This document shows positions 1 through 18,172 of a stretch of DNA of 18,172 nt, in pieces (the first letter of the stretch is position 1; every line of letters starts with the position of its first letter). The translations under genes were made by a program, and so were the position numbers. The stretch spans positions 1 to 18,172 of the IMG/VR virus record IMGVR_UViG_3300045988_006903; one strand, written 5' to 3'. The notes under the pieces were generated by a model, which was not told where the DNA came from, searched no databases, and saw nothing but the letters and a program-made list of their open reading frames with translations. Origin of the DNA: a virus.

Positions 1-50
1 AAAAAGGAGGGGAGGGGCCCCAGCAGCTAACTCTTTTCCATAACCGCTCT

Positions 51-178
51 GTTGTGTGTTTGTGTTTTCTTTGGTCTTCTGTGTTTTTCATTGCTGTTGC
101 TGGTGGTCGTGTTGTGGTGGGTTGTTTTGTGTTTGGTTTTTTTGTGTGTTTTGGGTGTGTTGTTTTTTGTGGTGTGGT
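51..178 (+). repeat. Strand-asymmetric G+T tract inside the left ITR
   Basis: By hand count, 51..178 holds one A (position 90) and about 8 C on the + strand. 109..178 is 70 nt of G and T only. No ORF lies here. Confidence 0.9.
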
Positions 179-183
179 ATGAT
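175..183 (+). promoter_or_regulatory. Extended -10 promoter candidate (TGGTATGAT) for the ITR gene
   Basis: TGn plus TATGAT about 32 nt upstream of the ATG at 215. A GGAAGGAAG Shine-Dalgarno sequence lies at 201..209. It belongs to a recurring TGnTAnnAT family in this genome. Confidence 0.5.
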
Positions 184-214
184 GTGAATATCAACCGATA
201 GGAAGGAAGATAAA

Positions 215-415
215 ATGATTAGCAACAGCATCATTAAGAATTATGTCGAAGACTACGTCCTGAACAGTGACCAATTCGTCGATGAGTTTGACGTTGATGC
301 GATTGTCGAGAATCTGCATCATGTGGCTTTGGTCAATGATATGGTCATTGAGAAATATGATGATTGTGATTCGTTTCCGGCTGATGATTTTACGGAAGCG
401 TTTGAGGAGGCGTGA
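215..415 (+). CDS. ITR-encoded small acidic protein (66 aa), unknown function
   Basis: ATG with a strong SD (GGAAGGAAG). It has 11 Asp and 7 Glu against 2 Lys and 0 Arg. An identical protein is encoded at 17758..17958 (-). The only nucleotide difference is synonymous (GAG versus GAA). Confidence 0.75.
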   Translation: MISNSIIKNYVEDYVLNSDQFVDEFDVDAIVENLHHVALVNDMVIEKYDDCDSFPADDFTEAFEEA

Positions 416-416
416 C

Positions 417-485
417 ATGTTCGCCTCGGTGCTTGTTATTTGCGCGTGCGTTTTTGGTGTCGTTGTCGTTTTTGGCATGGTTTGA
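417..485 (+). CDS. Possible 22-aa hydrophobic peptide (MFASVLVICACVFGVVVVFGMV)
   Basis: The ATG at 417 is preceded by GAGGAGG at 404..410 with a 6-nt spacer. The peptide could form a single TM-like helix. It is very short, so the call is speculative. Confidence 0.25.
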   Translation: MFASVLVICACVFGVVVVFGMV

Positions 486-510
486 GCGTCTTTGGTCTGA
501 TAGGTGGTGA

Positions 511-519
511 TGTTATAAT
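511..519 (+). promoter_or_regulatory. Extended -10 promoter (TGTTATAAT)
   Basis: Exact TGnTATAAT. The ATG at 527 lies 7 nt past the hexamer with no SD, the geometry expected for a leaderless mRNA. Confidence 0.5.
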
Positions 520-526
520 GGTTGGC

Positions 527-673
527 ATGATTGTTGCCGTCTACGTTCTTTCCGTGCTGTTTCTTATAATGGCGGCTACGGTGTTTTGCGAACTGCCGCG
601 CAACGCGCGTGACGTTTTTTGTTTTTTGGTCATGCTTGGCGTGAGCGTGGCTATTGTATTGGTTTTTTTGTGA
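527..673 (+). CDS. Small membrane protein with two predicted TM helices
   Basis: This is the 3' part of ORF 440..673. MIVAVYVLSVLFLIMAATVF-CELPRNARD-VFCFLVMLGVSVAIVLVFL gives two hydrophobic segments split by a charged loop. The start is ambiguous (440, 518 or 527). Confidence 0.55.
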   Translation: MIVAVYVLSVLFLIMAATVFCELPRNARDVFCFLVMLGVSVAIVLVFL

Positions 674-685
674 AAGGGGTTTGAA

Positions 686-931
686 ATGGTTGAGAATGAT
701 AGGAAGATTGCCACGTTCCGCTCTCCGTTTAGGGGCGGTGACGTTGGACTATGGTATTGCGCCCACCGCAATGTGTACGAACTCCGGTATGATGTCCGAT
801 TTTATTCAATGGACGGATTGACTGATGCAGTTGCATTGACGCCGTATGACGCATGTGACTACGACCAAGTGGTTGATATTATCGTTGACGCTACCGACTT
901 GGCGCTTACTTCGCTTTTAGAAAGGAATTAG
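686..931 (+). CDS. Hypothetical early protein (81 aa)
   Basis: ORF with SD GAAAGGGG 6-7 nt upstream. It is tightly packed in a co-directional gene string. No recognisable motif. Confidence 0.6.
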   Translation: MVENDRKIATFRSPFRGGDVGLWYCAHRNVYELRYDVRFYSMDGLTDAVALTPYDACDYDQVVDIIVDATDLALTSLLERN

Positions 932-933
932 CC

Positions 934-1137
934 ATGTATTTTCGTGGTTGGATACATTCGTGGGTATGTGGCACGTGTTCAGACGCCGATAATTATTGGC
1001 GACTGAGGGCGTTTTGGGCAGGTGTGAAGCGTAAGGGTGGCCCTTTCACTCCGCCGAGACGGTGCCCGAGTACCGACTTGTGGTTTGATATGTGGTGGTA
1101 TGGTGCAGAGTCCAGTAATGAGGAATTGGAGTTTTGA
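934..1137 (+). CDS. Hypothetical early protein (67 aa, Trp-rich)
   Basis: ORF with SD AAAGGA. It starts 2 nt after the previous stop, and its stop overlaps the next gene. Confidence 0.5.
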   Translation: MYFRGWIHSWVCGTCSDADNYWRLRAFWAGVKRKGGPFTPPRRCPSTDLWFDMWWYGAESSNEELEF

Positions 1138-1139
1138 TT

Positions 1140-1670
1140 ATGAAATCGAAGAATTTGAATTTTGATAAAAGCGACAAACGTACGAACTGGTTTGATGATG
1201 GCGTGCTGGATGATGACCGTGTGCGCCGTGTCATTCGTGGTCGTCGGCGTAATCTGCATTTGCGTGAATACAATCGAGGTGAGGGCGATTGGGAAACGTT
1301 ATGCCGTAGTATAACACTGCTCAAGGACTTTTATAAGCCTCAAGGGTCGCAAGTGGCGTTCGCCGACGGGGTGGAACATGCGGCAAATGTTTGCTTATCG
1401 CTGTCCCCTCGCACATCCCGTATCGGTGCGTTGGCGCGAACTCAGGATATTGAAATGTTGGGCGGCGTCATTTATGCTCCGGCTATGGTGGCGTGGTGCG
1501 CCGTCTGTCATGTCAAGGGCGCGTCGTGCTATGAAATGTGCAAGGTGTGGGATGGCAACGAATTTGCTCAGACCGTCGTCAAAATCGCGTGTCGATGTTT
1601 TGACAATCTGACAGATGTGCGGTATACTGATGAAGACATTGCAAGAATGTCGCAACAGCAGCAACAATAA
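1140..1670 (+). CDS. Hypothetical early protein (~176 aa) with a Cys cluster and poly-Gln tail
   Basis: ORF track 1134..1670; the ATG at 1140 follows GGAG at 1127..1130. It has a basic RRVIRGRRRN segment and a CxxCH-x6-CxxxC cluster (nt 1497..1541). The C-terminus is QQQQQ. Confidence 0.6.
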   Translation: MKSKNLNFDKSDKRTNWFDDGVLDDDRVRRVIRGRRRNLHLREYNRGEGDWETLCRSITLLKDFYKPQGSQVAFADGVEHAANVCLSLSPRTSRIGALARTQDIEMLGGVIYAPAMVAWCAVCHVKGASCYEMCKVWDGNEFAQTVVKIACRCFDNLTDVRYTDEDIARMSQQQQQ

Positions 1671-1681
1671 GATAAGGTGGC

Positions 1682-2002
1682 ATGACTATGGCATACATTA
1701 AGAGAGCCAAGCATTACAGTATCGTACGCGGTATCACGCGCGGTGAAAACGGCGAACTCGTTGACACCGAGGTGGTCGTGAATGGCGCGTGCCGTACGGC
1801 TGACATGGCTATGAAGAAAGCCCGCAAAATCAACAAGGACATGCTACCCATGTCCGCCGAATATCATGCGCAGGCAACGCGCATGGATGAATCGATTTAT
1901 TGGGCTAATTGCGAATTTGGAGATGATACCGTTGTTGACTATCCGGGGCCGGTTAACGGCAACGTGGTCGAAGATGATATTATCACCGAGGAAAATAATT
2001 AA
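1682..2002 (+). CDS. Hypothetical early protein (104-106 aa); possible phi29 p6-like dsDNA-binding protein
   Basis: SD AAGGTGG at 1674..1680 favours the second ATG at 1688. The p6-like idea rests on three points: similar size, an acidic C-terminal tail (VVEDDIITEENN), and a position just upstream of the SSB-TP-polymerase block as in phi29 (gene order 6-5-4-3-2). Sequence similarity by eye is weak. Confidence 0.55.
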   Translation: MTMAYIKRAKHYSIVRGITRGENGELVDTEVVVNGACRTADMAMKKARKINKDMLPMSAEYHAQATRMDESIYWANCEFGDDTVVDYPGPVNGNVVEDDIITEENN

Positions 2003-2029: not shown

Positions 2030-2467
2030 ATGGCTGACAACGAACTGACCGTAACGAACGGCAACAACTTTTCCGCAAACGGCACTAACGCCGTATCCCA
2101 CTTCTTCGATACCTCCACGATGGACGGCAAGATGGCACTGTACAACGCCATGCAGACCGCCGATAAGGTAGACGAACACCTCAACGAGCCGTTGCATGTT
2201 ACCAACGTGCTGGCGCAGGCCATCGAAGTCGCCAATCAGGAGACCGGCGAAATCAATTCGTCCACCCGCGTCGTCATTCACTCGGAGGAAGGCGACTTTG
2301 CCGCCGCCTCCCCTACGCTGGCGCACGCATTCGGTAATCTGTTCGCCATTTTCGGCACGCCGGACACGTGGAACCAGCCGCTTGCCCTCAAGGTGGTGGA
2401 AAAGAAGAGTCGTCGTGGCTATAAGTTCTTCGACCTTGAACTAGTGTCGGAAAACAAGCGCAAGTAA
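2030..2467 (+). CDS. Phage-type single-stranded DNA-binding protein (Lactococcus-phage SSB-like family)
   Basis: SD AAGGAAAGG. The pattern ...GKMALYNAMQTADK..L.EPL.VTNV.AQ.IEV.NQETGE...STRVV....G...A.S......FGN.FAIFGTPDTW.QPL.LKV..K.SRRGYKF..LELV matches my recollection of phage OB-fold SSBs. The position upstream of the TP and polymerase genes fits. Confidence 0.55.
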   Translation: MADNELTVTNGNNFSANGTNAVSHFFDTSTMDGKMALYNAMQTADKVDEHLNEPLHVTNVLAQAIEVANQETGEINSSTRVVIHSEEGDFAAASPTLAHAFGNLFAIFGTPDTWNQPLALKVVEKKSRRGYKFFDLELVSENKRK

Positions 2468-2513: not shown

Positions 2514-3533
2514 ATGTTGCCGCCAGACTCACCCCCCGCCGTTTCCATCCTTGCGGCGAGGGGTGTTTCATACTCACAGGGGGGGGCCGTGGCAAAACGC
2601 AAAAACCGCCGACGCGCTGACAATCTGAAACGCAACGCCGCAATCAGGTCGGCACAGGTACGCCGAGAGCGAGCAGTTAGAGATTACAGTACCGGACGAC
2701 TCCCCAAGAAAATCACCGAAACGTTTTTAGGGAACCTCAGTGCCCAACAGCTTGAACAGGTAGCACGACGCGTCGGGCAGGAGTTCGGAGAGCAGCAGCA
2801 GGCTTTAAGGGCGCGAGATAATGAACCGTATCAGGTTGTCCCCGACGTTCATGTCACGAAACTTGACCGTGAGATGGCGTCGCGTCCGCTGATTATTGAC
2901 GCGGAAATTGCCGCCGCACCGCCGAAACGTCGGAAAACATTGCGGCAGCAGCAGCGCCGCAGAGTTGAGGCACGGCAGAAAATCAAGCGTGCTCAACAAT
3001 TCGAGGCGCTGAGCATGGCCCGCTATACCGTGGGTGAAATGCGTGAAATGGAACGTGCAGGCGAATCCCCGTTTGACGTGCTGGGCACTCACACGGTCGG
3101 CGGTTCGGCCCGCGATGAACTCATGCGAAGCCGTGCGAACGTGTTCGGCTCAGAGCGTGGAATAAGCCATGCACGCGCGATGATTCGAGAGGGGAGCCGT
3201 AGGAAACTTGAGCGAGAAATGCTTGAATACGCCGGACTTATTGGACGTGCGCCGTTACGCGCCGGAACTAGGCGTATTCCCGAGAACGAGGGCGTTTCGG
3301 ATTTTGATAAAGTCGCACAGCAACTTGAAGCATTCGATTTCAGCGTAGCTCAAAGATTTGCCGCTTTGTCGAACCGTCAAAAACGATGGCTGATAAACAA
3401 CACGAATTTCAGCGTTGTAGTGCGCGAGGCAACGTGGTATAATGATAAGGCACATAAATGGGAGACTAAAGCAGATGCAGGAGATGTAGAGACACGACTT
3501 GACGAATGGATGACTAGCGCAGCAAGACACTAA
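2514..3533 (+). CDS. Terminal protein (replication primer) candidate
   Basis: Sits directly upstream of the protein-primed polymerase, as phi29 gene 3 does. It is highly Arg/Lys-rich with an N-terminal KRKNRRRADNLKRN stretch. At 314-339 aa it is comparable to known TPs. The start is uncertain: ATG 2514, or GTG 2589 preceded by AGGGGGGG. Confidence 0.55.
   Translation: MLPPDSPPAVSILAARGVSYSQGGAVAKRKNRRRADNLKRNAAIRSAQVRRERAVRDYSTGRLPKKITETFLGNLSAQQLEQVARRVGQEFGEQQQALRARDNEPYQVVPDVHVTKLDREMASRPLIIDAEIAAAPPKRRKTLRQQQRRRVEARQKIKRAQQFEALSMARYTVGEMREMERAGESPFDVLGTHTVGGSARDELMRSRANVFGSERGISHARAMIREGSRRKLEREMLEYAGLIGRAPLRAGTRRIPENEGVSDFDKVAQQLEAFDFSVAQRFAALSNRQKRWLINNTNFSVVVREATWYNDKAHKWETKADAGDVETRLDEWMTSAARH
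2530..2565 (+). promoter_or_regulatory. GC-rich hairpin in the TP leader or 5' coding region
   Basis: CACCCCCCGCC at 2530..2540 pairs with GGCGAGGGGTG at 2555..2565. That is an 11-bp stem with one mismatch and a 14-nt loop, followed by TTTCA. It could be an attenuator or weak terminator after the SSB gene. Confidence 0.3.
3435..3443 (+). promoter_or_regulatory. Internal extended -10 (TGGTATAAT) upstream of the polymerase gene
   Basis: Exact TGnTATAAT inside the 3' end of the TP gene, about 100 nt before the polymerase ATG. Confidence 0.35.
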
Positions 3534-3547
3534 AAAAGGATGGAATT

Positions 3548-5008
3548 ATGCGAGAGCGTCGAACGGCGGCAACAGACGGCGCAACATTATTGACGGATGA
3601 CGGTATAACGCCATTGACGGCGAATGCAGTCATCCGATTGACCATGCTTGACCACCATACGCGCGTATGGTGCGCTCACGGATGGCAGGATATCAAGCCC
3701 ATAGCGGCTCAACTATTGAAACGACTGCCGTTGCAATCGAATCCGGCCAAGGATGGAGTTTGGGGCACGTTCAATATTCGCGGCCATTTCTACAATTTTC
3801 GCGTGCGTATGGGCGGCGTCACCGTGGATTTTCTGGACGTGCGCAACATCACACGCGACGACGGACTGAATGTTTCACGTGAAACATTTGGTGGGGCGGA
3901 TGACTTGGAAACCACGTGGAACATCGCGCGGGAATGCGACGCCCTGAATCTCAAGGGCATGACCATAGCGTCTATGGCAATGGGCGATTACGTCGGCGGA
4001 GATTACGCAGGATTCAAACGCCATTTCCCGCCATTGGATAAAGCGGAATATCATCGGATGCGCCCCGCATACTATGGAGCGATAGTGTACAGCAGACCGG
4101 GCGAATATCGGGATTGCCGGAGTTGGGATGTGAATAGTCTTTATCCGAGCATCATGCACGACTTCGCCATGCCCGTAGGTTCTCCCGTCTGGTATGAGGG
4201 AGAATATCATTATGACGCTGATTATCCGCTGCATATCGATGTTATCTCGTTCGACGCGCGACTGAAAACGGGAAAAACGGCGACACTCACAAACATCCTA
4301 CCCGTATGGGGATACGAGGGCGAACGTATGGACAGCACGCTAGGCGTCGTCACCATGCCGGTGACCGACGTGGATTGGCAAACCCTGACGGAAAACTATG
4401 ATGTCCATGTGTGGGAGTATATCGGCGGCTGGAAATTCCGTAAATCACATGGACTCTACTATAATTACGTTGATAAATGGTTTCACGTGAAACAAACCGC
4501 AACCGGCGAGCGTCGTCAAATGGCGAAACTATTGCTTAACTCGCTGGTGGGAAAATTCGGGGCCTCGCTTTACCGGCCAATGCTTCACCCGAAGTCTTCC
4601 GGCGATGGCGGCGTGGATTTTACTGTGGACAAACCCGAGTCGGCCAACTCACTCGCATGGCTACCGACCGCCGCATATGTCAACGCCTACGGTCGGCAAA
4701 TATTGTCCCGCGCGATGAACGCGAACGCCGGTCGTGTGCTCTACGCCGATACAGACGGCATGATATTGGAGGGGTCAGATGCGCCCGCAGATATCGAAAC
4801 GGATAATAGGAAACTGGGCGCGTGGAAAAACGACCATACCTATGAAAAACTCCGTATCCTCGGCAATCGCAAATATTGCGGCGTAGAGACAGATGGCAGC
4901 ACGGTGATGCGGTTGAGTGGCGTGCATCGGGCTGCCCCTATCCCCTACGACGATTTTCTGCCGAGGTCACGCCATGTCAATGATGACGGCTGTTTTTTTG
5001 TGCTATAA
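3548..5008 (+). CDS. Family-B DNA polymerase, protein-primed (phi29-like)
   Basis: Motif A WDVNSLYPS (nt 4127..), motif B KLLLNSLVGKFG (4526..), motif C YADTDG (4742..) and KxY NRKYCG (4871..). Long stretches are colinear with phi29 DNAP, e.g. EGEYHYDADYPLHI versus EGKYVWDEDYPLHI, and RKLGAWKNDHTYEK versus KKLGYWAHESTFKR. SD is AAGGA. Confidence 0.95.
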   Translation: MRERRTAATDGATLLTDDGITPLTANAVIRLTMLDHHTRVWCAHGWQDIKPIAAQLLKRLPLQSNPAKDGVWGTFNIRGHFYNFRVRMGGVTVDFLDVRNITRDDGLNVSRETFGGADDLETTWNIARECDALNLKGMTIASMAMGDYVGGDYAGFKRHFPPLDKAEYHRMRPAYYGAIVYSRPGEYRDCRSWDVNSLYPSIMHDFAMPVGSPVWYEGEYHYDADYPLHIDVISFDARLKTGKTATLTNILPVWGYEGERMDSTLGVVTMPVTDVDWQTLTENYDVHVWEYIGGWKFRKSHGLYYNYVDKWFHVKQTATGERRQMAKLLLNSLVGKFGASLYRPMLHPKSSGDGGVDFTVDKPESANSLAWLPTAAYVNAYGRQILSRAMNANAGRVLYADTDGMILEGSDAPADIETDNRKLGAWKNDHTYEKLRILGNRKYCGVETDGSTVMRLSGVHRAAPIPYDDFLPRSRHVNDDGCFFVL

Positions 5009-5175: not shown

Positions 5176-5194
5176 TCTACCTTAAGAGGTGATT

Positions 5195-5536
5195 ATGGAC
5201 GACACCGAAAATGATGACAAGCCGGACACCACGCCCGACACCGAACCGGACGTGACCGCCGACGACAATACGCCGAACCCGGAGCCTGAAACGCAGGACG
5301 ATAATGAACCTGAGGACGCGGGCGACGACAAGAACGCCGACATGTCCGACCGGTTGAGCGCATTGGAGGCGACTGTGGCGGAATTGTCTAAAACCGTCGA
5401 AGCGATGCGCGACGCCGCCGCCGACCATGTGCTGAACGATGGCCCCGACGACAATGCGACGCCGGAGTCGGCTGAAATGACCGACGACGACTATAACGGC
5501 ACCTACAGTACTTTCGACGACCTATACGAAGACTGA
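5195..5536 (+). CDS. Scaffolding protein candidate (very acidic, with a coiled-coil segment)
   Basis: The ORF track starts at GTG 5189; the ATG at 5195 follows AAGAGG. The N-terminus is D/E/T/P-rich low complexity and the centre is helical (LSALEATVAELSKTVEAMRDAAA). It lies directly upstream of the capsid gene, as phi29 gene 7 does. Confidence 0.6.
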   Translation: MDDTENDDKPDTTPDTEPDVTADDNTPNPEPETQDDNEPEDAGDDKNADMSDRLSALEATVAELSKTVEAMRDAAADHVLNDGPDDNATPESAEMTDDDYNGTYSTFDDLYED

Positions 5537-16855: not shown

Positions 16856-17701
16856 ATGGACGGCGTGAAATGGATAGGTTCACCGAACCACTACAATGGA
16901 CGGAACGGATACGCCGTGACCCACATAACACTACACATCATGGTCGGCCACCTTGCGGGAACAGACAGCGTATTCTTAAATGCCGGTTCGCAGGCAAGCG
17001 CACATTACGGCATTGGCGCAGACGGGACTGTACATCAATACGTAAGCGAGAGTGACGGCAGTTACAGCGACGCCAATTTCGCGTCAAACAACTCGACAAT
17101 CAGCATAGAGCACGAAGGCGGCATGGCCGGAATACCATGTACCAAGTCGTGCATGGACGCTTCCGCCCGACTATGCGCCGATATTGCGCGACGTCAAGGA
17201 TGGACGCGACTATGGCACGACGGACTCAACGGCAACATCTGGCTACACCGCGAAGTGCCCGGCACCGACCACTACGGGTGCCCAGACAGGACGGTAAACG
17301 GACTTGATGTAAACTACGTCATTGACAAAGCAAACCAAATACTAGGAAGGGACGACGAAGTGTCAGCAGCAGACGTAACCACAGGACTCTACCAAACCAA
17401 AGGCAACGACGGACGAAACTTATTCGACGGAGTTATACAGACACGGAACGAGCTGAAAGACAGGGCCATAGATGCGCTATATCAAGCCAAAGGCAACGAC
17501 GGACGAAATCTATTCGACGGAGTTATACAAGCACGCTGGGATATTGCCGAACTGAAGACCATGCTCACAGCACAAACAGCAGCCATCGAAGCACTCAGCA
17601 AGACAGTAGGGGCTAACCCAGAAACCATAGCCCAGACAGTGCAGAACGCTGTTAAAAAGAAACTAGACAGCCTGCATATCACCGTAACAGACAAACAGTA
17701 A
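16856..17701 (+). CDS. Endolysin: N-acetylmuramoyl-L-alanine amidase (Amidase_2/PGRP type) with an unusual repeat-containing C-terminus
   Basis: SD GAAGG. Motifs are ITLHIMVGHL, SAHYGIGADGTVHQYV, NNSTISIEHEG and HREVPGTDHYGCPD, which look like the Zn-ligand His/His/Cys pattern. The C-terminal ~110 aa holds two 20-aa repeats and a helical tail. No LysM, SH3 or CW-binding motif is recognisable. Confidence 0.9.
   Translation: MDGVKWIGSPNHYNGRNGYAVTHITLHIMVGHLAGTDSVFLNAGSQASAHYGIGADGTVHQYVSESDGSYSDANFASNNSTISIEHEGGMAGIPCTKSCMDASARLCADIARRQGWTRLWHDGLNGNIWLHREVPGTDHYGCPDRTVNGLDVNYVIDKANQILGRDDEVSAADVTTGLYQTKGNDGRNLFDGVIQTRNELKDRAIDALYQAKGNDGRNLFDGVIQARWDIAELKTMLTAQTAAIEALSKTVGANPETIAQTVQNAVKKKLDSLHITVTDKQ
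17387..17536 (+). repeat. In-frame tandem duplication (90-nt period) in the endolysin C-terminus
   Basis: 17387..17446 encodes LYQTKGNDGRNLFDGVIQTR and 17477..17536 encodes LYQAKGNDGRNLFDGVIQAR. The DNA is nearly identical, including a shared CCAAAGGCAACGACGGACGAAA core. Confidence 0.85.
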
Positions 17702-17710
17702 GAGAGACAA

Positions 17711-17750
17711 AGTAAAAGCCCCTAGGTTTATCGACCTAGGGGCTTTTACT
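17711..17750. terminator. Bidirectional terminator between the late operon and the right ITR gene
   Basis: Perfect 16-bp stem AGTAAAAGCCCCTAGG/CCTAGGGGCTTTTACT with an 8-nt loop. T-rich sequence is at or after the stem on both strands. It sits between convergent stop codons at 17701 and 17758. Confidence 0.75.
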
Positions 17751-17757
17751 TTATCTC

Positions 17758-17958
17758 TCACGCTTCCTCAAACGCTTCCGTAAAATCATCAGCCGGAAAC
17801 GAATCACAATCATCATATTTCTCAATGACCATATCATTGACCAAAGCCACATGATGCAGATTCTCGACAATCGCATCAACGTCAAACTCATCGACGAATT
17901 GGTCACTGTTCAGGACGTAGTCTTCGACATAATTCTTAATGATGCTGTTGCTAATCAT
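17758..17958 (-). CDS. Second copy of the ITR-encoded small acidic protein (66 aa)
   Basis: The protein is identical to that of 215..415. It is transcribed inward from the right end, and the promoter and SD are duplicated with the ITR. Confidence 0.75.
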   Translation of the reverse strand: MISNSIIKNYVEDYVLNSDQFVDEFDVDAIVENLHHVALVNDMVIEKYDDCDSFPADDFTEAFEEA

Positions 17959-17989
17959 TTTATCTTCCTTCCTATCGGTTGATATTCAC

Positions 17990-17998
17990 ATCATACCA
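17990..17998 (-). promoter_or_regulatory. Mirror copy of the ITR promoter candidate (TGGTATGAT on the - strand)
   Basis: Reverse complement of 175..183. Confidence 0.5.
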
Positions 17999-18122
17999 CA
18001 CCACAAAAAACAACACACCCAAAACACACAAAAAAACCAAACACAAAACAACCCACCACAACACGACCACCAGCAACAGCAATGAAAAACACAGAAGACC
18101 AAAGAAAACACAAACACACAAC
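17995..18122 (-). repeat. Mirror copy of the G+T tract in the right ITR
   Basis: Exact reverse complement of 51..178, reading as C+A on the + strand. Confidence 0.9.
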
Positions 18123-18172
18123 AGAGCGGTTATGGAAAAGAGTTAGCTGCTGGGGCCCCTCCCCTCCTTTTT

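What the first reader, a model, noticed from the sequence alone, without database searches (positions are those of the whole stretch)
51..178. Near-pure G+T strand in each ITR (70 nt of only G and T)
Positions 109..178 contain only G and T on the 5'-ending strand, and 51..178 has one A and about 8 C. Because of the ITR, the displaced 5' strand is G+T-rich at both ends. This tract cannot contain any palindromic restriction site. As ssDNA it cannot form Watson-Crick hairpins, yet it can still pair with the C+A tract of the other ITR to form a panhandle. It also holds several T4-T7 runs, which would favour bending or easy melting next to the replication origin. In phi29, histone-like p6 nucleates at this kind of position. 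I know of no described equivalent in phi29-like phages.
Basis: seen in the sequence. Interest (0 to 1): 0.7.

Follow-up and report, generated by a model that had tools for sequence, protein, structure and literature searches.

The report
Phased T-run, A-free spacer in phage ITR
The G+T-only stretch is real and fills the space between the replication origin and an early promoter at both ends of a small Bifidobacterium-type phage genome. It looks like a built-in docking array for a phi29-p6-like DNA-wrapping protein, made even purer by C-to-T decay of the strand that is displaced during replication.

Summary
Positions 109-178 hold only G and T (42 T, 28 G). Positions 51-178 hold 75 T, 45 G, 7 C and 1 A. 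The tract is mirrored at 17995-18122 by a 415-bp ITR. The window is a complete protein-primed podophage genome whose nearest isolates infect Bifidobacterium.

The tract joins a conserved terminal box (1-50) to an inward-facing extended -10 promoter (TGGTATGAT, 175-183). That promoter drives a 66-aa gene carried inside the ITR.

Three new points:
1. All relatives that reach the terminus have a 130-235 nt tract with 1-6% A, dominated by T then G. This window is the C-poor extreme.
2. Synonymous sites show a mirror-image C->T shift on the 5'-ending strand within about 1.5 kb of both ends. Gene orientation is the same at both ends, so the shift follows the replication strand. It explains the missing C but not the missing A. 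It is absent from phi29, Cp-1 and other controls.
3. T-runs keep a 13.0-bp register from terminal box to promoter, and 24-24.5 bp in the sister clade. ORF 1682-2002, just upstream of a phi29-type SSB, has phi29 p6 as its top solved-structure match.

Best reading: a sequence-encoded array for a p6-type nucleoprotein complex. No binding has been shown. I class it as a new variant of a known kind.

The parts
1..415 (+). Left inverted terminal repeat
   Evidence: Identical to the reverse complement of 17758-18172 except at position 409.
17758..18172 (-). Right inverted terminal repeat
1..50 (+). Conserved terminal box AAAAAGGAGGGGAGGGGCCCCAGCAGCTA..CTTTTCCATAACCGCTCT. Presumed minimal origin; the 5'-AAAAA would allow sliding-back.
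   Evidence: At least eight independent IMG/VR contigs start at AAAA(A)GGAGGGG. The box is conserved in 19 relatives. Its origin function is inferred.
51..178 (+). A-free T/G tract (75 T, 45 G, 7 C, 1 A). This is the finding.
   Evidence: Relatives have 130-235 nt tracts with T 55-62%, G 22-30%, C 6-20%, A 1-6%.
109..178 (+). Pure G+T run of 70 nt. 109-136 is a window-specific variable segment. 137-178 is the conserved promoter-upstream block.
48..62 (+). Conserved island TCTGTTGTGTGTTT, holding the first copy of motif [GC]TGTGTTT (starts at 54)
   Evidence: Alignment. The motif occurs in the genome only at 54, 79 and 144 and their ITR mirrors.
76..100 (+). Conserved island TTCTGTGTTTTTCATTGCTGTTGCT, holding the second motif copy, 25 nt after the first
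   Evidence: A spacing of 25-26 nt recurs in 12 relatives.
34..183 (+). Array of T-runs in a 13-bp register. Runs of 4 or more T lie at 34, 65, 84, 125, 137, 149, 163. The register includes the T-run of the terminal box and the -10 hexamer.
   Evidence: Family Fourier peak at 13.0 bp: power about 24, z 36-46, 0 of 300 shuffles. 17 of 19 sequences have their top period at 12.75-13.0. In the window alone the top period is 13.0 with power 10.4 and p about 0.005-0.017 at the pre-set period; it is not significant over all periods.
137..185 (+). Conserved promoter block TTTTTTTGTGTGTTTTGGGTGTGTTGTTTTTTGTGGTGTGGTATGAT
   Evidence: Conserved in all 19 relatives, although the first gene downstream differs between them.
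175..183 (+). Extended -10 promoter element TGGTATGAT facing inward, with no recognisable -35
   Evidence: It is also the first sequence of the truncated BD811P2 record. Its activity is inferred.
201..209 (+). Ribosome-binding site GGAAGGAAG
   Evidence: Sequence, 6 nt before the ATG at 215.
215..415 (+). ITR-borne gene for a 66-aa very acidic protein. The second copy is at 17958..17758.
   Evidence: 119 homologues. No family match. The structure model is unusable, pLDDT 57.
17995..18122 (-). Mirror copy of the tract (C+A on the + strand)
17708..17753 (.). Bidirectional terminator with a 20-bp stem. It closes the right ITR transcription unit and the late operon.
1682..2002 (+). p6-like dsDNA-binding protein candidate (106 aa; basic N-terminus, acidic C-terminal tail)
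   Evidence: AF2 pLDDT 68, with the core at 74-90. The top PDB match is phi29 p6, 8pw4_A. BFVD matches are to p6 or dsDNA-binding proteins of Bacillus phages. The gene lies directly upstream of the SSB, as gene 6 does in phi29. hhalign against the phi29 p6 sequence is negative.
2030..2467 (+). phi29-type single-stranded DNA-binding protein
   Evidence: Pfam PF17427, E 1.7e-14. PHROG 6243.
2514..3533 (+). Putative terminal protein, assigned by position only
   Evidence: It lies between the SSB and DNAP genes, as in Av-1 and Curtobacterium phages. It has no sequence match.
3548..5008 (+). Protein-primed family-B DNA polymerase
   Evidence: Matches phi29 DNAP 1xhx, E 1.2e-44. PHROG 1907.
215..1670 (+). 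Left-end genes with a C->T shift at third codon positions: C/(C+T) 0.38 against 0.62 in the middle of the genome
   Evidence: p 5e-13. Pooled four-fold sites of 20 genomes.
16856..17701 (+). Endolysin gene with the mirror-image shift: G/(G+A) 0.34 against 0.64. This equals C->T on the - strand.
   Evidence: p 3e-12. The same shift is seen in L088, L089 and L094 and in BP1 and BD811P2.

Best explanation
The tract is the non-coding body of each ITR. It links the terminal origin box (1-50) to an inward-facing extended -10 early promoter (175-183).

It is built from rigid T-runs in a fixed register of about 13 bp, separated by flexible TG-rich spacers, with no A on the 5'-ending strand. It most likely serves as a sequence-encoded landing pad for the phage's p6-like double-stranded-DNA-binding protein (ORF 1682-2002). 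By analogy with phi29 p6, that protein would polymerise along the array and wrap it. This would help unwind the end for terminal-protein-primed initiation and cover, and so switch off, the ITR promoter.

The near-absence of C is what turns an 'A-free' tract into a 'pure G+T' one in this genome. It is a by-product of C->T pressure on the 5'-ending (displaced) strand over the last 1.5 kb or so of both ends.

Shown: the position, the promoter conservation, the composition in relatives, the mirror-image synonymous-site skew, the T-run register, and the p6-like fold.

Inferred: protein binding, origin activation, promoter repression, and deamination of displaced single-stranded DNA as the cause of the skew.
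For: Anatomy:
- The terminal box is conserved, and independent contigs start at it.
- The promoter block is conserved upstream of different first genes.

Register:
- Period 13.0 bp at family level: power about 24, z 36-46, 0 of 300 run-order shuffles.
- 17 of 19 individual sequences peak at 12.75-13.0 bp.
- The T-run of the terminal box and the -10 hexamer share the same phase.
- Tract lengths fall into classes of about 139, 165, 214, 239 and 262 nt, in steps of 23-26 bp.
- The sister BP1/BD811-like clade has different sequences but T-runs phased at 24.0-24.5 bp: z 16, 0 of 200 shuffles.

Protein:
- For ORF 1682-2002, the top PDB match is phi29 p6, and it is the only match with probability above 0.35.
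- BFVD matches include proteins annotated p6 or dsDNA-binding protein.
- The gene order p6-like, SSB, TP, DNAP parallels phi29 genes 6, 5, 3, 2.

What is known of p6 (PMC4974454, PMC10899789):
- One dimer binds per 24 bp, with a contact and bend every 12 bp.
- It nucleates 46-125 bp from the ends by bendability, not by sequence.
- It unwinds the ends and represses the end-proximal early promoter C2.

C->T skew:
- Four-fold C/(C+T) is 0.27-0.30 in the first kb and rises to about 0.7 by 2 kb.
- Window left genes against middle genes differ at p 5e-13. The right-end + strand gene shows the mirror G->A shift at p 3e-12.
- The same pattern is seen in BP1 and BD811P2, and weakly in BadAargau2 and BadAztec1.
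- There is no neighbour-base context.
Against: - No binding data exist.
- The p6-like call rests on a medium-confidence model (pLDDT 68) and a Foldseek E-value of 0.07 against PDB. Profile comparison with the p6 sequence finds nothing.
- In this window the 13-bp signal is among the weakest of its clade. It is significant only at the period fixed beforehand from relatives. The window-specific pure-G+T segment 97-124 lacks the expected T-runs.
- The relatives share ancestry. A register could therefore be a fossil of 25-26-nt tandem duplications.
- The period differs between clades (13.0 against 24-24.5). Some members peak at 20-21 bp.
- phi29's own ends show no significant T/A-run register.
- The honeybee phages have the p6-like gene but no clear array.
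- A-depletion is not explained by the model: 1-3% A in the tract against about 10% at nearby four-fold sites.
- The skew is confined to about 1.5 kb rather than falling linearly to mid-genome. It is absent from phi29, Cp-1, Curtobacterium and Eggerthella phages. The deamination account is therefore incomplete.
Confidence: 0.45

Rival explanations
1. Neutral by-product. The spacer between origin and promoter is unconstrained. Its composition is only the local mutational equilibrium: C->T on the displaced strand plus slippage that expands T-runs and G/T microsatellites. The 13- or 26-bp register is a fossil of tandem duplications. Nothing binds it specifically.
For: - The same C->T shift is seen at synonymous sites on both ends.
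- Third positions of the first BD811P2 gene (A .08, C .05, G .26, T .61) nearly equal the tract composition.
- Relatives carry obvious microsatellites and tandem units: (GGTT)5-6 in three 113-nt repeats, (GT)9 and (GGT)4.
- TRF finds degenerate 13-, 15- and 24-nt repeats in 101-176.
- Tract length and the central sequence vary freely.
Against: - A is about 10% at neighbouring four-fold sites but 1-3% in the tract. C->T pressure alone does not give an A-free strand.
- T-run lengths vary from 4 to 9, yet the register holds over 150-280 bp in sequence-diverged subfamilies.
- A second clade with unrelated tract sequence also has a strict register.
- Islands at 48-62 and 76-100 and the block 137-185 are conserved in sequence.
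Confidence: 0.3
2. Function at the single-strand level. An A-free 5' strand and a T-free 3' strand cannot fold. The displaced end therefore stays open for SSB loading, is copied without pausing, and can anneal fast with the complementary ITR to form a panhandle that rebuilds a duplex origin.
For: Both strands of 51-178 are the least structured 128-nt windows of the genome. The ITR is long at 415 bp, as in adenovirus, where panhandles are proposed. A phi29-type SSB is encoded.
Against: Lack of structure follows automatically from the composition, so it is not independent evidence. It explains neither the T-run register nor the conserved islands. The rest of the ITR (1-50 and 179-415) is ordinary sequence. 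phi29-type replication from both ends needs no panhandle.
Confidence: 0.1
3. Promoter architecture only. The T-runs act as UP-element-like or curved upstream DNA for host RNA polymerase at an extended -10 promoter that lacks a -35. The A-free and T-free strands keep spurious -10 hexamers out of the origin region.
For: The inner 45 nt is conserved with the -10 element. The second early promoter (TGTTATAAT, 511-519) also has an A-poor upstream 60 nt: A5, C6, G21, T28. No TAnnnT can occur on either strand of 109-178.
Against: Promoters further from the end (5001, 7287, 9723, 14187) have no such upstream region. Curvature that activates promoters is phased at 10-11 bp, not 13 or 24 bp. The array extends 140-260 bp upstream to the terminal box, beyond the reach of RNA polymerase.
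Confidence: 0.1
4. A telomere-like or G-quadruplex element, or an assembly artefact of low-complexity sequence.
For: Relatives show GGGGTT, (GGTT)n and (GT)n repeats near the ends. Many contigs break inside the tract.
Against: - The G/T strand is the 5'-ending strand, the opposite polarity to telomeric G-strands.
- The window has only short G2-G3 runs with long loops.
- The tract is identical in both ITR copies.
- It is reproduced in dozens of independent assemblies, with the terminal box and promoter in place.
Confidence: 0.03

Closest known systems
phi29 p6 recognition regions at the genome ends, with the p6-repressed early promoter C2
   Same: Both lie tens to about 150 bp from a TP-capped end, next to an end-proximal early promoter. 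phi29 C2 is at 125-159 nt from the right end and is annotated as repressed by p6. A roughly 105-aa p6-fold protein is encoded just upstream of the SSB. The DNA signal has a period close to one p6 monomer (12 bp) or one dimer (24 bp) (PMC4974454).
   Different: In phi29 the signal is a subtle bendability pattern with no compositional oddity. Its ends give no significant T/A-run register, and their 5'-ending strand is A+C-rich. Here the signal is an overt, strand-pure T-run array 130-260 bp long, inside a long ITR, with a 13.0-bp register in this clade. Binding has not been tested.
Replication-associated strand asymmetry of strand-displacement replicons (vertebrate mtDNA heavy strand; APOBEC3B editing of the displaced adenovirus strand)
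   Same: There is a G+T excess on the strand that is single-stranded during replication. It is strongest at four-fold sites, and its polarity follows the replication strand rather than the gene strand (PMC3269012, PMC4182315, PMC9934312).
   Different: It is confined to about 1.5 kb at each end instead of grading across the replicon. It is essentially C->T only on the left side. It has no TC context. It is absent from other protein-primed phages tested. The papers I searched do not describe it for phages.
Long ITRs carrying promoters in other protein-primed phages (Streptococcus phage Cp-1, 236-bp ITR; Actinomyces phage Av-1)
   Same: In these phages too, an ITR of hundreds of bp carries early promoters at or near its inner edge, pointing inward at both ends.
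   Different: The Cp-1 ITR is A-rich on the 5'-ending strand (133 A and 23 G in the first 300 nt). Av-1 has mixed composition. Neither has a two-letter tract or a significant T-run register.
Adenovirus ITR auxiliary origin region (NFI and Oct-1 sites next to the core origin)
   Same: An accessory duplex-DNA-binding region lies inside the ITR, directly inward of the minimal origin of a protein-primed replicon. This comparison rests on established knowledge; I did not test it here.
   Different: The adenovirus region consists of discrete sequence-specific sites for host factors. It is not a periodic low-complexity array.

Membership tests
phi29-like protein-primed linear dsDNA podophage replicon | Inverted terminal repeats with a short reiterated terminal base run that permits sliding-back | tested here: met
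   415-bp ITR. The genome starts with 5'-AAAAA, and independent contigs start at the same sequence.
phi29-like protein-primed linear dsDNA podophage replicon | Family-B DNA polymerase of the protein-primed type | tested here: met
   phmmer against PDB matches only phi29 DNAP (1xhx), E 1.2e-44. PHROG 1907, E 2e-54.
phi29-like protein-primed linear dsDNA podophage replicon | Terminal protein covalently bound to the 5' ends | not testable with these tools
   The candidate 2514-3533 is assigned by gene order only. It has no Pfam, PHROG or BLASTP similarity to the Av-1 TP.
phi29-like protein-primed linear dsDNA podophage replicon | phi29-type SSB, a packaging ATPase without a small terminase, and picovirus-type head and connector genes | tested here: met
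   PF17427. PHROG 2150 ATPase and PHROG 2006 major head protein. Gene order matches the annotated relatives.
phi29-like protein-primed linear dsDNA podophage replicon | Packaging RNA (pRNA) gene near one end | tested here: not met
   An Rfam 15 scan at E up to 1 finds no pRNA. The only two matches are chance hits on the terminator. A divergent pRNA is not excluded.
p6-type nucleoprotein recognition region | A p6-fold dsDNA-binding protein encoded by the phage | tested here: met
   Foldseek: 8pw4_A phi29 p6, prob 1.00, TM 0.48/0.59. BFVD matches to p6 or DBP-annotated proteins. There is no sequence-level support, and the model pLDDT is 68.
p6-type nucleoprotein recognition region | Position within about 50-130 bp of the genome end, adjacent to the origin | tested here: met
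   The array runs from 34 to 183. phi29 positions are taken from PMC4974454.
p6-type nucleoprotein recognition region | DNA signal with a 12-bp (monomer) or 24-bp (dimer) periodicity of bendability | tested here: inconclusive
   A strong periodic T-run signal exists. Its period is 13.0 bp in this clade and 24.0-24.5 bp in the sister clade. This is near to, but in this clade not equal to, the phi29 value. In the window alone the signal is weak.
p6-type nucleoprotein recognition region | Cooperative binding of the protein, activation of initiation, and repression of the adjacent early promoter | not testable with these tools
   This needs EMSA or footprinting, and in vitro replication and transcription.
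Replication-associated strand compositional asymmetry (displaced-strand deamination) | Skew visible at four-fold degenerate sites | tested here: met
   Four-fold C/(C+T) is 0.27-0.30 near the end against 0.6-0.76 elsewhere.
Replication-associated strand compositional asymmetry (displaced-strand deamination) | Polarity follows the replication strand, not the transcription strand | tested here: met
   All the genes concerned are on the + strand. The left end shows C->T on the + strand and the right end shows G->A on the + strand. BP1 and BD811P2 show the same.
Replication-associated strand compositional asymmetry (displaced-strand deamination) | Magnitude proportional to the time spent single-stranded (a linear fall to mid-genome under the symmetric two-end model) | tested here: not met
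   The shift decays within about 1.5-2 kb of each end and is flat beyond. Either the model of single-strand exposure differs here, or another end-specific process is at work.

The most novel reading that the evidence does not exclude
Bifidobacterium podophages have hard-wired their ends. The proposal has two parts. First, the ITR carries a strand-pure, register-specific T-run array (13 bp in this clade, 24 bp in the sister clade) that positions a p6-type protein filament. The filament couples origin opening to shut-off of the ITR promoter. Second, the mirror-image C->T footprint over the last 1.5 kb records that these ends persist as single strands in vivo. The ends could be chronically unwound, or exposed to an end-specific deamination process, which the standard phi29 model does not predict.
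Probability: 0.3. Interest if true: 0.75.

Novelty: new variant of a known kind. Interest (0 to 1): 0.6.

Why it matters
phi29 p6 has long been described as binding by 'bendability' without a readable DNA code. A natural system would be useful in which the same kind of protein faces an overt, periodic, strand-pure array, with two different registers in two sister clades. It would let the rules of p6-DNA wrapping, origin opening and early-promoter silencing be tested directly.

The mirror-image C->T footprint would be the first genomic trace, in a phage, of which DNA stays single-stranded during protein-primed replication, and for how far from the ends.

There are practical consequences too. 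Published isolate genomes of this group (BD811P2, BD811P3, BP1) are truncated or misassembled exactly at this tract. Origin fragments for phi29-style amplification systems might also be improved by such arrays.

Tried and rejected
- **Generic consequence of protein-primed replication: rejected.** phi29 and Cp-1 have A+C-rich 5'-ending strands. Curtobacterium, Eggerthella and two fecal contigs show no skew. Av-1 shows only a weak one.
- **Transcription-associated mutation as the cause of the skew: rejected for the right end.** There the coding strand shows G->A, the opposite of what transcription of those genes would give. The tract itself lies upstream of the promoter.
- **APOBEC-like context: not seen.** C/(C+T) drops equally after C, G or T.
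- **A-poor upstream region as a general promoter property: rejected.** It depends on distance from the end.
- **Consensus promoter scan.** It did not list the ITR promoter because that promoter has no -35. I identified it from conservation instead.
- **Sequence searches for the small early proteins.** Pfam and PHROGs found nothing for any of them, including the p6-like ORF. hhalign of the p6-like family against phi29 p6 was negative. Only fold comparison worked.
- **The 66-aa acidic ITR protein as a p56-like UDG inhibitor: not testable.** The model pLDDT is 57, so I ran no fold search.
- **TP candidate against Av-1 TP:** no similarity.
- **Rfam:** no pRNA and nothing in the tract.
- **Hairpin or G-quadruplex readings:** MFE is about 0, and G-runs are too short.
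- **An error of mine, corrected.** I first assumed the p6-like protein was far better conserved than the DNAP across clades. That was wrong: identity to BP1, BD811 and the honeybee phages is 23-34%.
- **A second error, corrected.** One gene coordinate I used at first (537-673) was out of frame. I corrected it to 527-673.
Full report
**What the window is.** The 18,172-bp window is a complete linear genome.
- Its two ends are inverted repeats for 415 nt, with one synonymous mismatch at 409.
- It starts 5'-AAAAAGGAGGGGAGGGG. At least eight independent IMG/VR contigs of relatives start at the same sequence.
- It encodes a family-B DNA polymerase whose only match among solved structures is phi29 DNAP (E 1.2e-44).
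- It also encodes a Pfam Phi29_Phage_SSB protein and a phi29-type packaging ATPase, major head protein and endolysin.
- The nearest isolates are Bifidobacterium podophages (BP1, BD811P1-3, BadAztec and BadAargau). They are only 23-48% identical at protein level.
- About 80 uncultivated human-gut contigs share 87-96% DNAP identity.

**The observation.** It is correct. Positions 109-178 contain only G and T (42 T, 28 G). Positions 51-178 contain 75 T, 45 G, 7 C and 1 A. The mirror copy lies at 17995-18122. Chance expectation for such a run is about 7e-16. Both strands of the tract are the least foldable 128-nt windows of the genome.

**Anatomy.** Aligning the ends of 19 relatives that reach the terminus divides the region as follows:
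- a conserved terminal box (1-50);
- two conserved islands that each hold the motif [GC]TGTGTTT (48-62 and 76-100). This motif occurs nowhere else in the genome except at 144 and in the mirror ITR;
- a variable centre (about 105-135);
- a strongly conserved block 137-185 that ends in an extended -10 element, TGGTATGAT (175-183).

An RBS (201-209) and the ATG at 215 follow. The conserved block precedes different first genes in different relatives. It is also the very first sequence of the truncated BD811P2 record. It is therefore a promoter module, not part of a gene. The ITR carries a complete early transcription unit for a 66-aa acidic protein. That unit is present at both ends, and at the right end it is closed by a bidirectional terminator at 17708-17753. 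About 40 nt of the 'pure G+T' run is therefore promoter-upstream DNA.

**What is conserved in relatives.** Every relative that reaches the end has a 130-235 nt tract with T 55-62%, G 22-30%, C 6-20% and A 1-6%. The family trait is an A-depleted, T-rich 5'-ending strand. The window is the C-poor extreme of it.

The BP1/BD811-like clade has T/G-rich tracts too, some more extreme. L178 has 397 nt at 93% G+T, built of three 113-nt units holding (GGTT)5-6. L180 has 113 nt with no A and 3 C. phi29, Cp-1, Curtobacterium, Eggerthella and two fecal contigs have nothing comparable. The 5'-ending strands of phi29 and Cp-1 are A+C-rich.

**A mirror-image skew that reaches into genes.** Third-codon-position G+T is as follows:

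| Region of the window | Third-position G+T |
|---|---|
| Five genes of the left 1.7 kb | 0.60-0.74 |
| p6-like gene at 1682-2002 | 0.53 |
| Middle of the genome | about 0.5 |
| Last + strand gene (endolysin) | 0.28 |

- Left-end genes show a C->T shift: C/(C+T) is 0.38 against 0.62, p 5e-13.
- The right-end gene is also on the + strand and shows the mirror G->A shift: G/(G+A) is 0.34 against 0.64, p 3e-12.
- Pooled four-fold sites of 20 genomes give C/(C+T) of 0.27-0.30 in the first kb, then 0.46, 0.57, and about 0.7 from 2 kb on. A/(A+G) barely changes, and the neighbouring base has no influence.
- BP1 and BD811P2 show the same pattern. In BD811P2, G3+T3 runs from 0.87 on the left to 0.16 on the right. 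The honeybee phages show it weakly.
- The sign flips between the ends while gene orientation does not. The pressure therefore follows the replication strand, meaning the 5'-ending strand that is displaced, and not transcription.

The chemistry matches cytosine deamination in single-stranded DNA. That process is discussed for phi29 replicative intermediates and their UDG inhibitor p56 (PMC4974454), and for the displaced adenovirus strand (PMC9934312).

The skew explains why the tract is so poor in C. It does not explain why the tract is almost free of A, because nearby four-fold sites keep about 10% A. Its confinement to about 1.5 kb, and its absence from other protein-primed phages, remain unexplained.

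**A register of T-runs.** T-runs in the tract are spaced at multiples of 13 bp (13, 26, 39, 52). The spacing starts at the T-run inside the terminal box and ends at the -10 hexamer.
- The family spectrum peaks at 13.0 bp: normalised power about 24, z 36-46 against shuffles that keep the runs but permute their order, 0 of 300.
- 17 of 19 individual sequences peak at 12.75-13.0 bp.
- The distal halves alone keep a 26-bp signal.
- The distance from the terminal box to the promoter falls into classes of about 139, 165, 214, 239 and 262 nt.
- In the window the signal is present but weak: the top period is 13.0 with power 10.4, p 0.005-0.017 at the pre-set period, and not significant when all periods are scanned.
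- The BP1/BD811-like clade has unrelated tract sequence and shows a register of 24.0-24.5 bp (z 16, 0 of 200).
- phi29, Cp-1 and Av-1 ends give no significant signal.
- The relatives are related, so part of the signal may be inherited from tandem duplications. Against that, T-run lengths vary between 4 and 9 nt yet the register holds over up to 280 bp, and a second clade has its own strict register. Both points argue for constraint.

**The protein that could read the array.** ORF 1682-2002 (106 aa, with a basic N-terminus and an acidic tail) lies directly upstream of the SSB, as gene 6 does in phi29.
- It has no Pfam or PHROG match, and hhalign against phi29 p6 is negative.
- An AlphaFold2 model (pLDDT 68, core 74-90) has the phi29 p6 crystal structure 8pw4_A as its top PDB match. 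That match has prob 1.00 and TM 0.48/0.59. It is the only match with probability above 0.35.
- The model also matches BFVD entries annotated 'Histone-like protein p6' and 'double-strand binding protein' from Bacillus phi29-like phages.
- p6 binds as one dimer per 24 bp and bends DNA every 12 bp. It nucleates 46-125 bp from the ends by bendability, unwinds the ends, and represses the end-proximal promoter C2 (PMC4974454, PMC10899789).
- A strand made only of G and T alternates rigid T-runs with flexible TG steps. From general DNA mechanics I infer that this is a plausible overt form of such a bendability code.

**Conclusion.** The tract is the origin-to-promoter body of the ITR. The best-supported mechanism is a sequence-encoded array for a p6-type nucleoprotein complex. 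Its 'G+T purity' in this genome comes from an end-anchored C->T pressure on the displaced strand. The main rival is that the tract is a neutral, slippage-prone spacer whose register is historical.

Position, ITR symmetry, the p6 analogy, and the SSB and p6 candidates hold. The promoter, the A-depletion, the synonymous-site skew and the register were not seen.

Nothing here has been tested by binding or replication assays. I rate it a new variant of a known kind, of moderate to good interest.

Noticed in passing
window 175-415 and 17758-17998: The ITR holds a complete early transcription unit: an extended -10 promoter, an RBS and a 66-aa very acidic ORF. The gene is therefore present twice, and it would be the first to enter the cell whichever end goes in first. 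It has 119 homologues and no known family. The AF2 model is too poor to use (pLDDT 57). I considered a DNA-mimic or anti-defence role, such as a p56-like UDG inhibitor, but could not test it.
   Followed up: partly
L001 (GenBank PQ571273, phage BP1) 1-300: The deposited BP1 genome has an Illumina adapter (ACACTCTTTCCCTACACGACGCTCTTCCGATCT) at about 260-291, and its first 120 nt or so repeat 661-780. The left end is misassembled and the true terminus starts near 292. The right end of the record stops inside the ITR.
   Followed up: partly
L002, L003 (BD811P2, BD811P3) ends; L006-L085 starts: The published BD811P2 and BD811P3 genomes begin inside the ITR promoter or the first gene, so they lack the tract and the terminal box. 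Many IMG/VR contigs break inside the tract, or carry adapter remnants that abut the terminal box.
   Followed up: partly
L178 1-397; L181 30-65; L122 1-25: Relatives of the BD811/BP1 clade carry microsatellite-like G/T repeats in the ITR. L178 has three tandem units of about 113 nt with (GGTT)5-6. L181 has (GT)9(GGT)4. L122 starts GGGGTTGGGG(TG)7. The repeats look telomere-like but have the opposite strand polarity.
   Followed up: partly
window about 5200-5400 (ORF 5189-5536): A conserved stretch of about 150 nt that is poor in T on the + strand lies just after the DNA polymerase gene. It is present in nearly all relatives (AT skew +0.39). It is probably a compositionally biased coding region, perhaps for a scaffold-like protein.
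   Followed up: no
window 511-673: This is probably a leaderless transcript. A TGTTATAAT promoter sits at 511-519 with an ATG at 527, encoding a 48-aa hydrophobic protein. Its upstream 60 nt are also A-poor.
   Followed up: no
window, whole: Rfam finds no pRNA, at E up to 1. If this phage packages DNA as phi29 does, its pRNA is too divergent for the Rfam model, or absent.
   Followed up: partly
window 3548-5008: The DNA polymerase is short (486 aa against 575 in phi29). The match to phi29 DNAP covers only residues 155-444, so the N-terminal exonuclease region is divergent or reduced.
   Followed up: no
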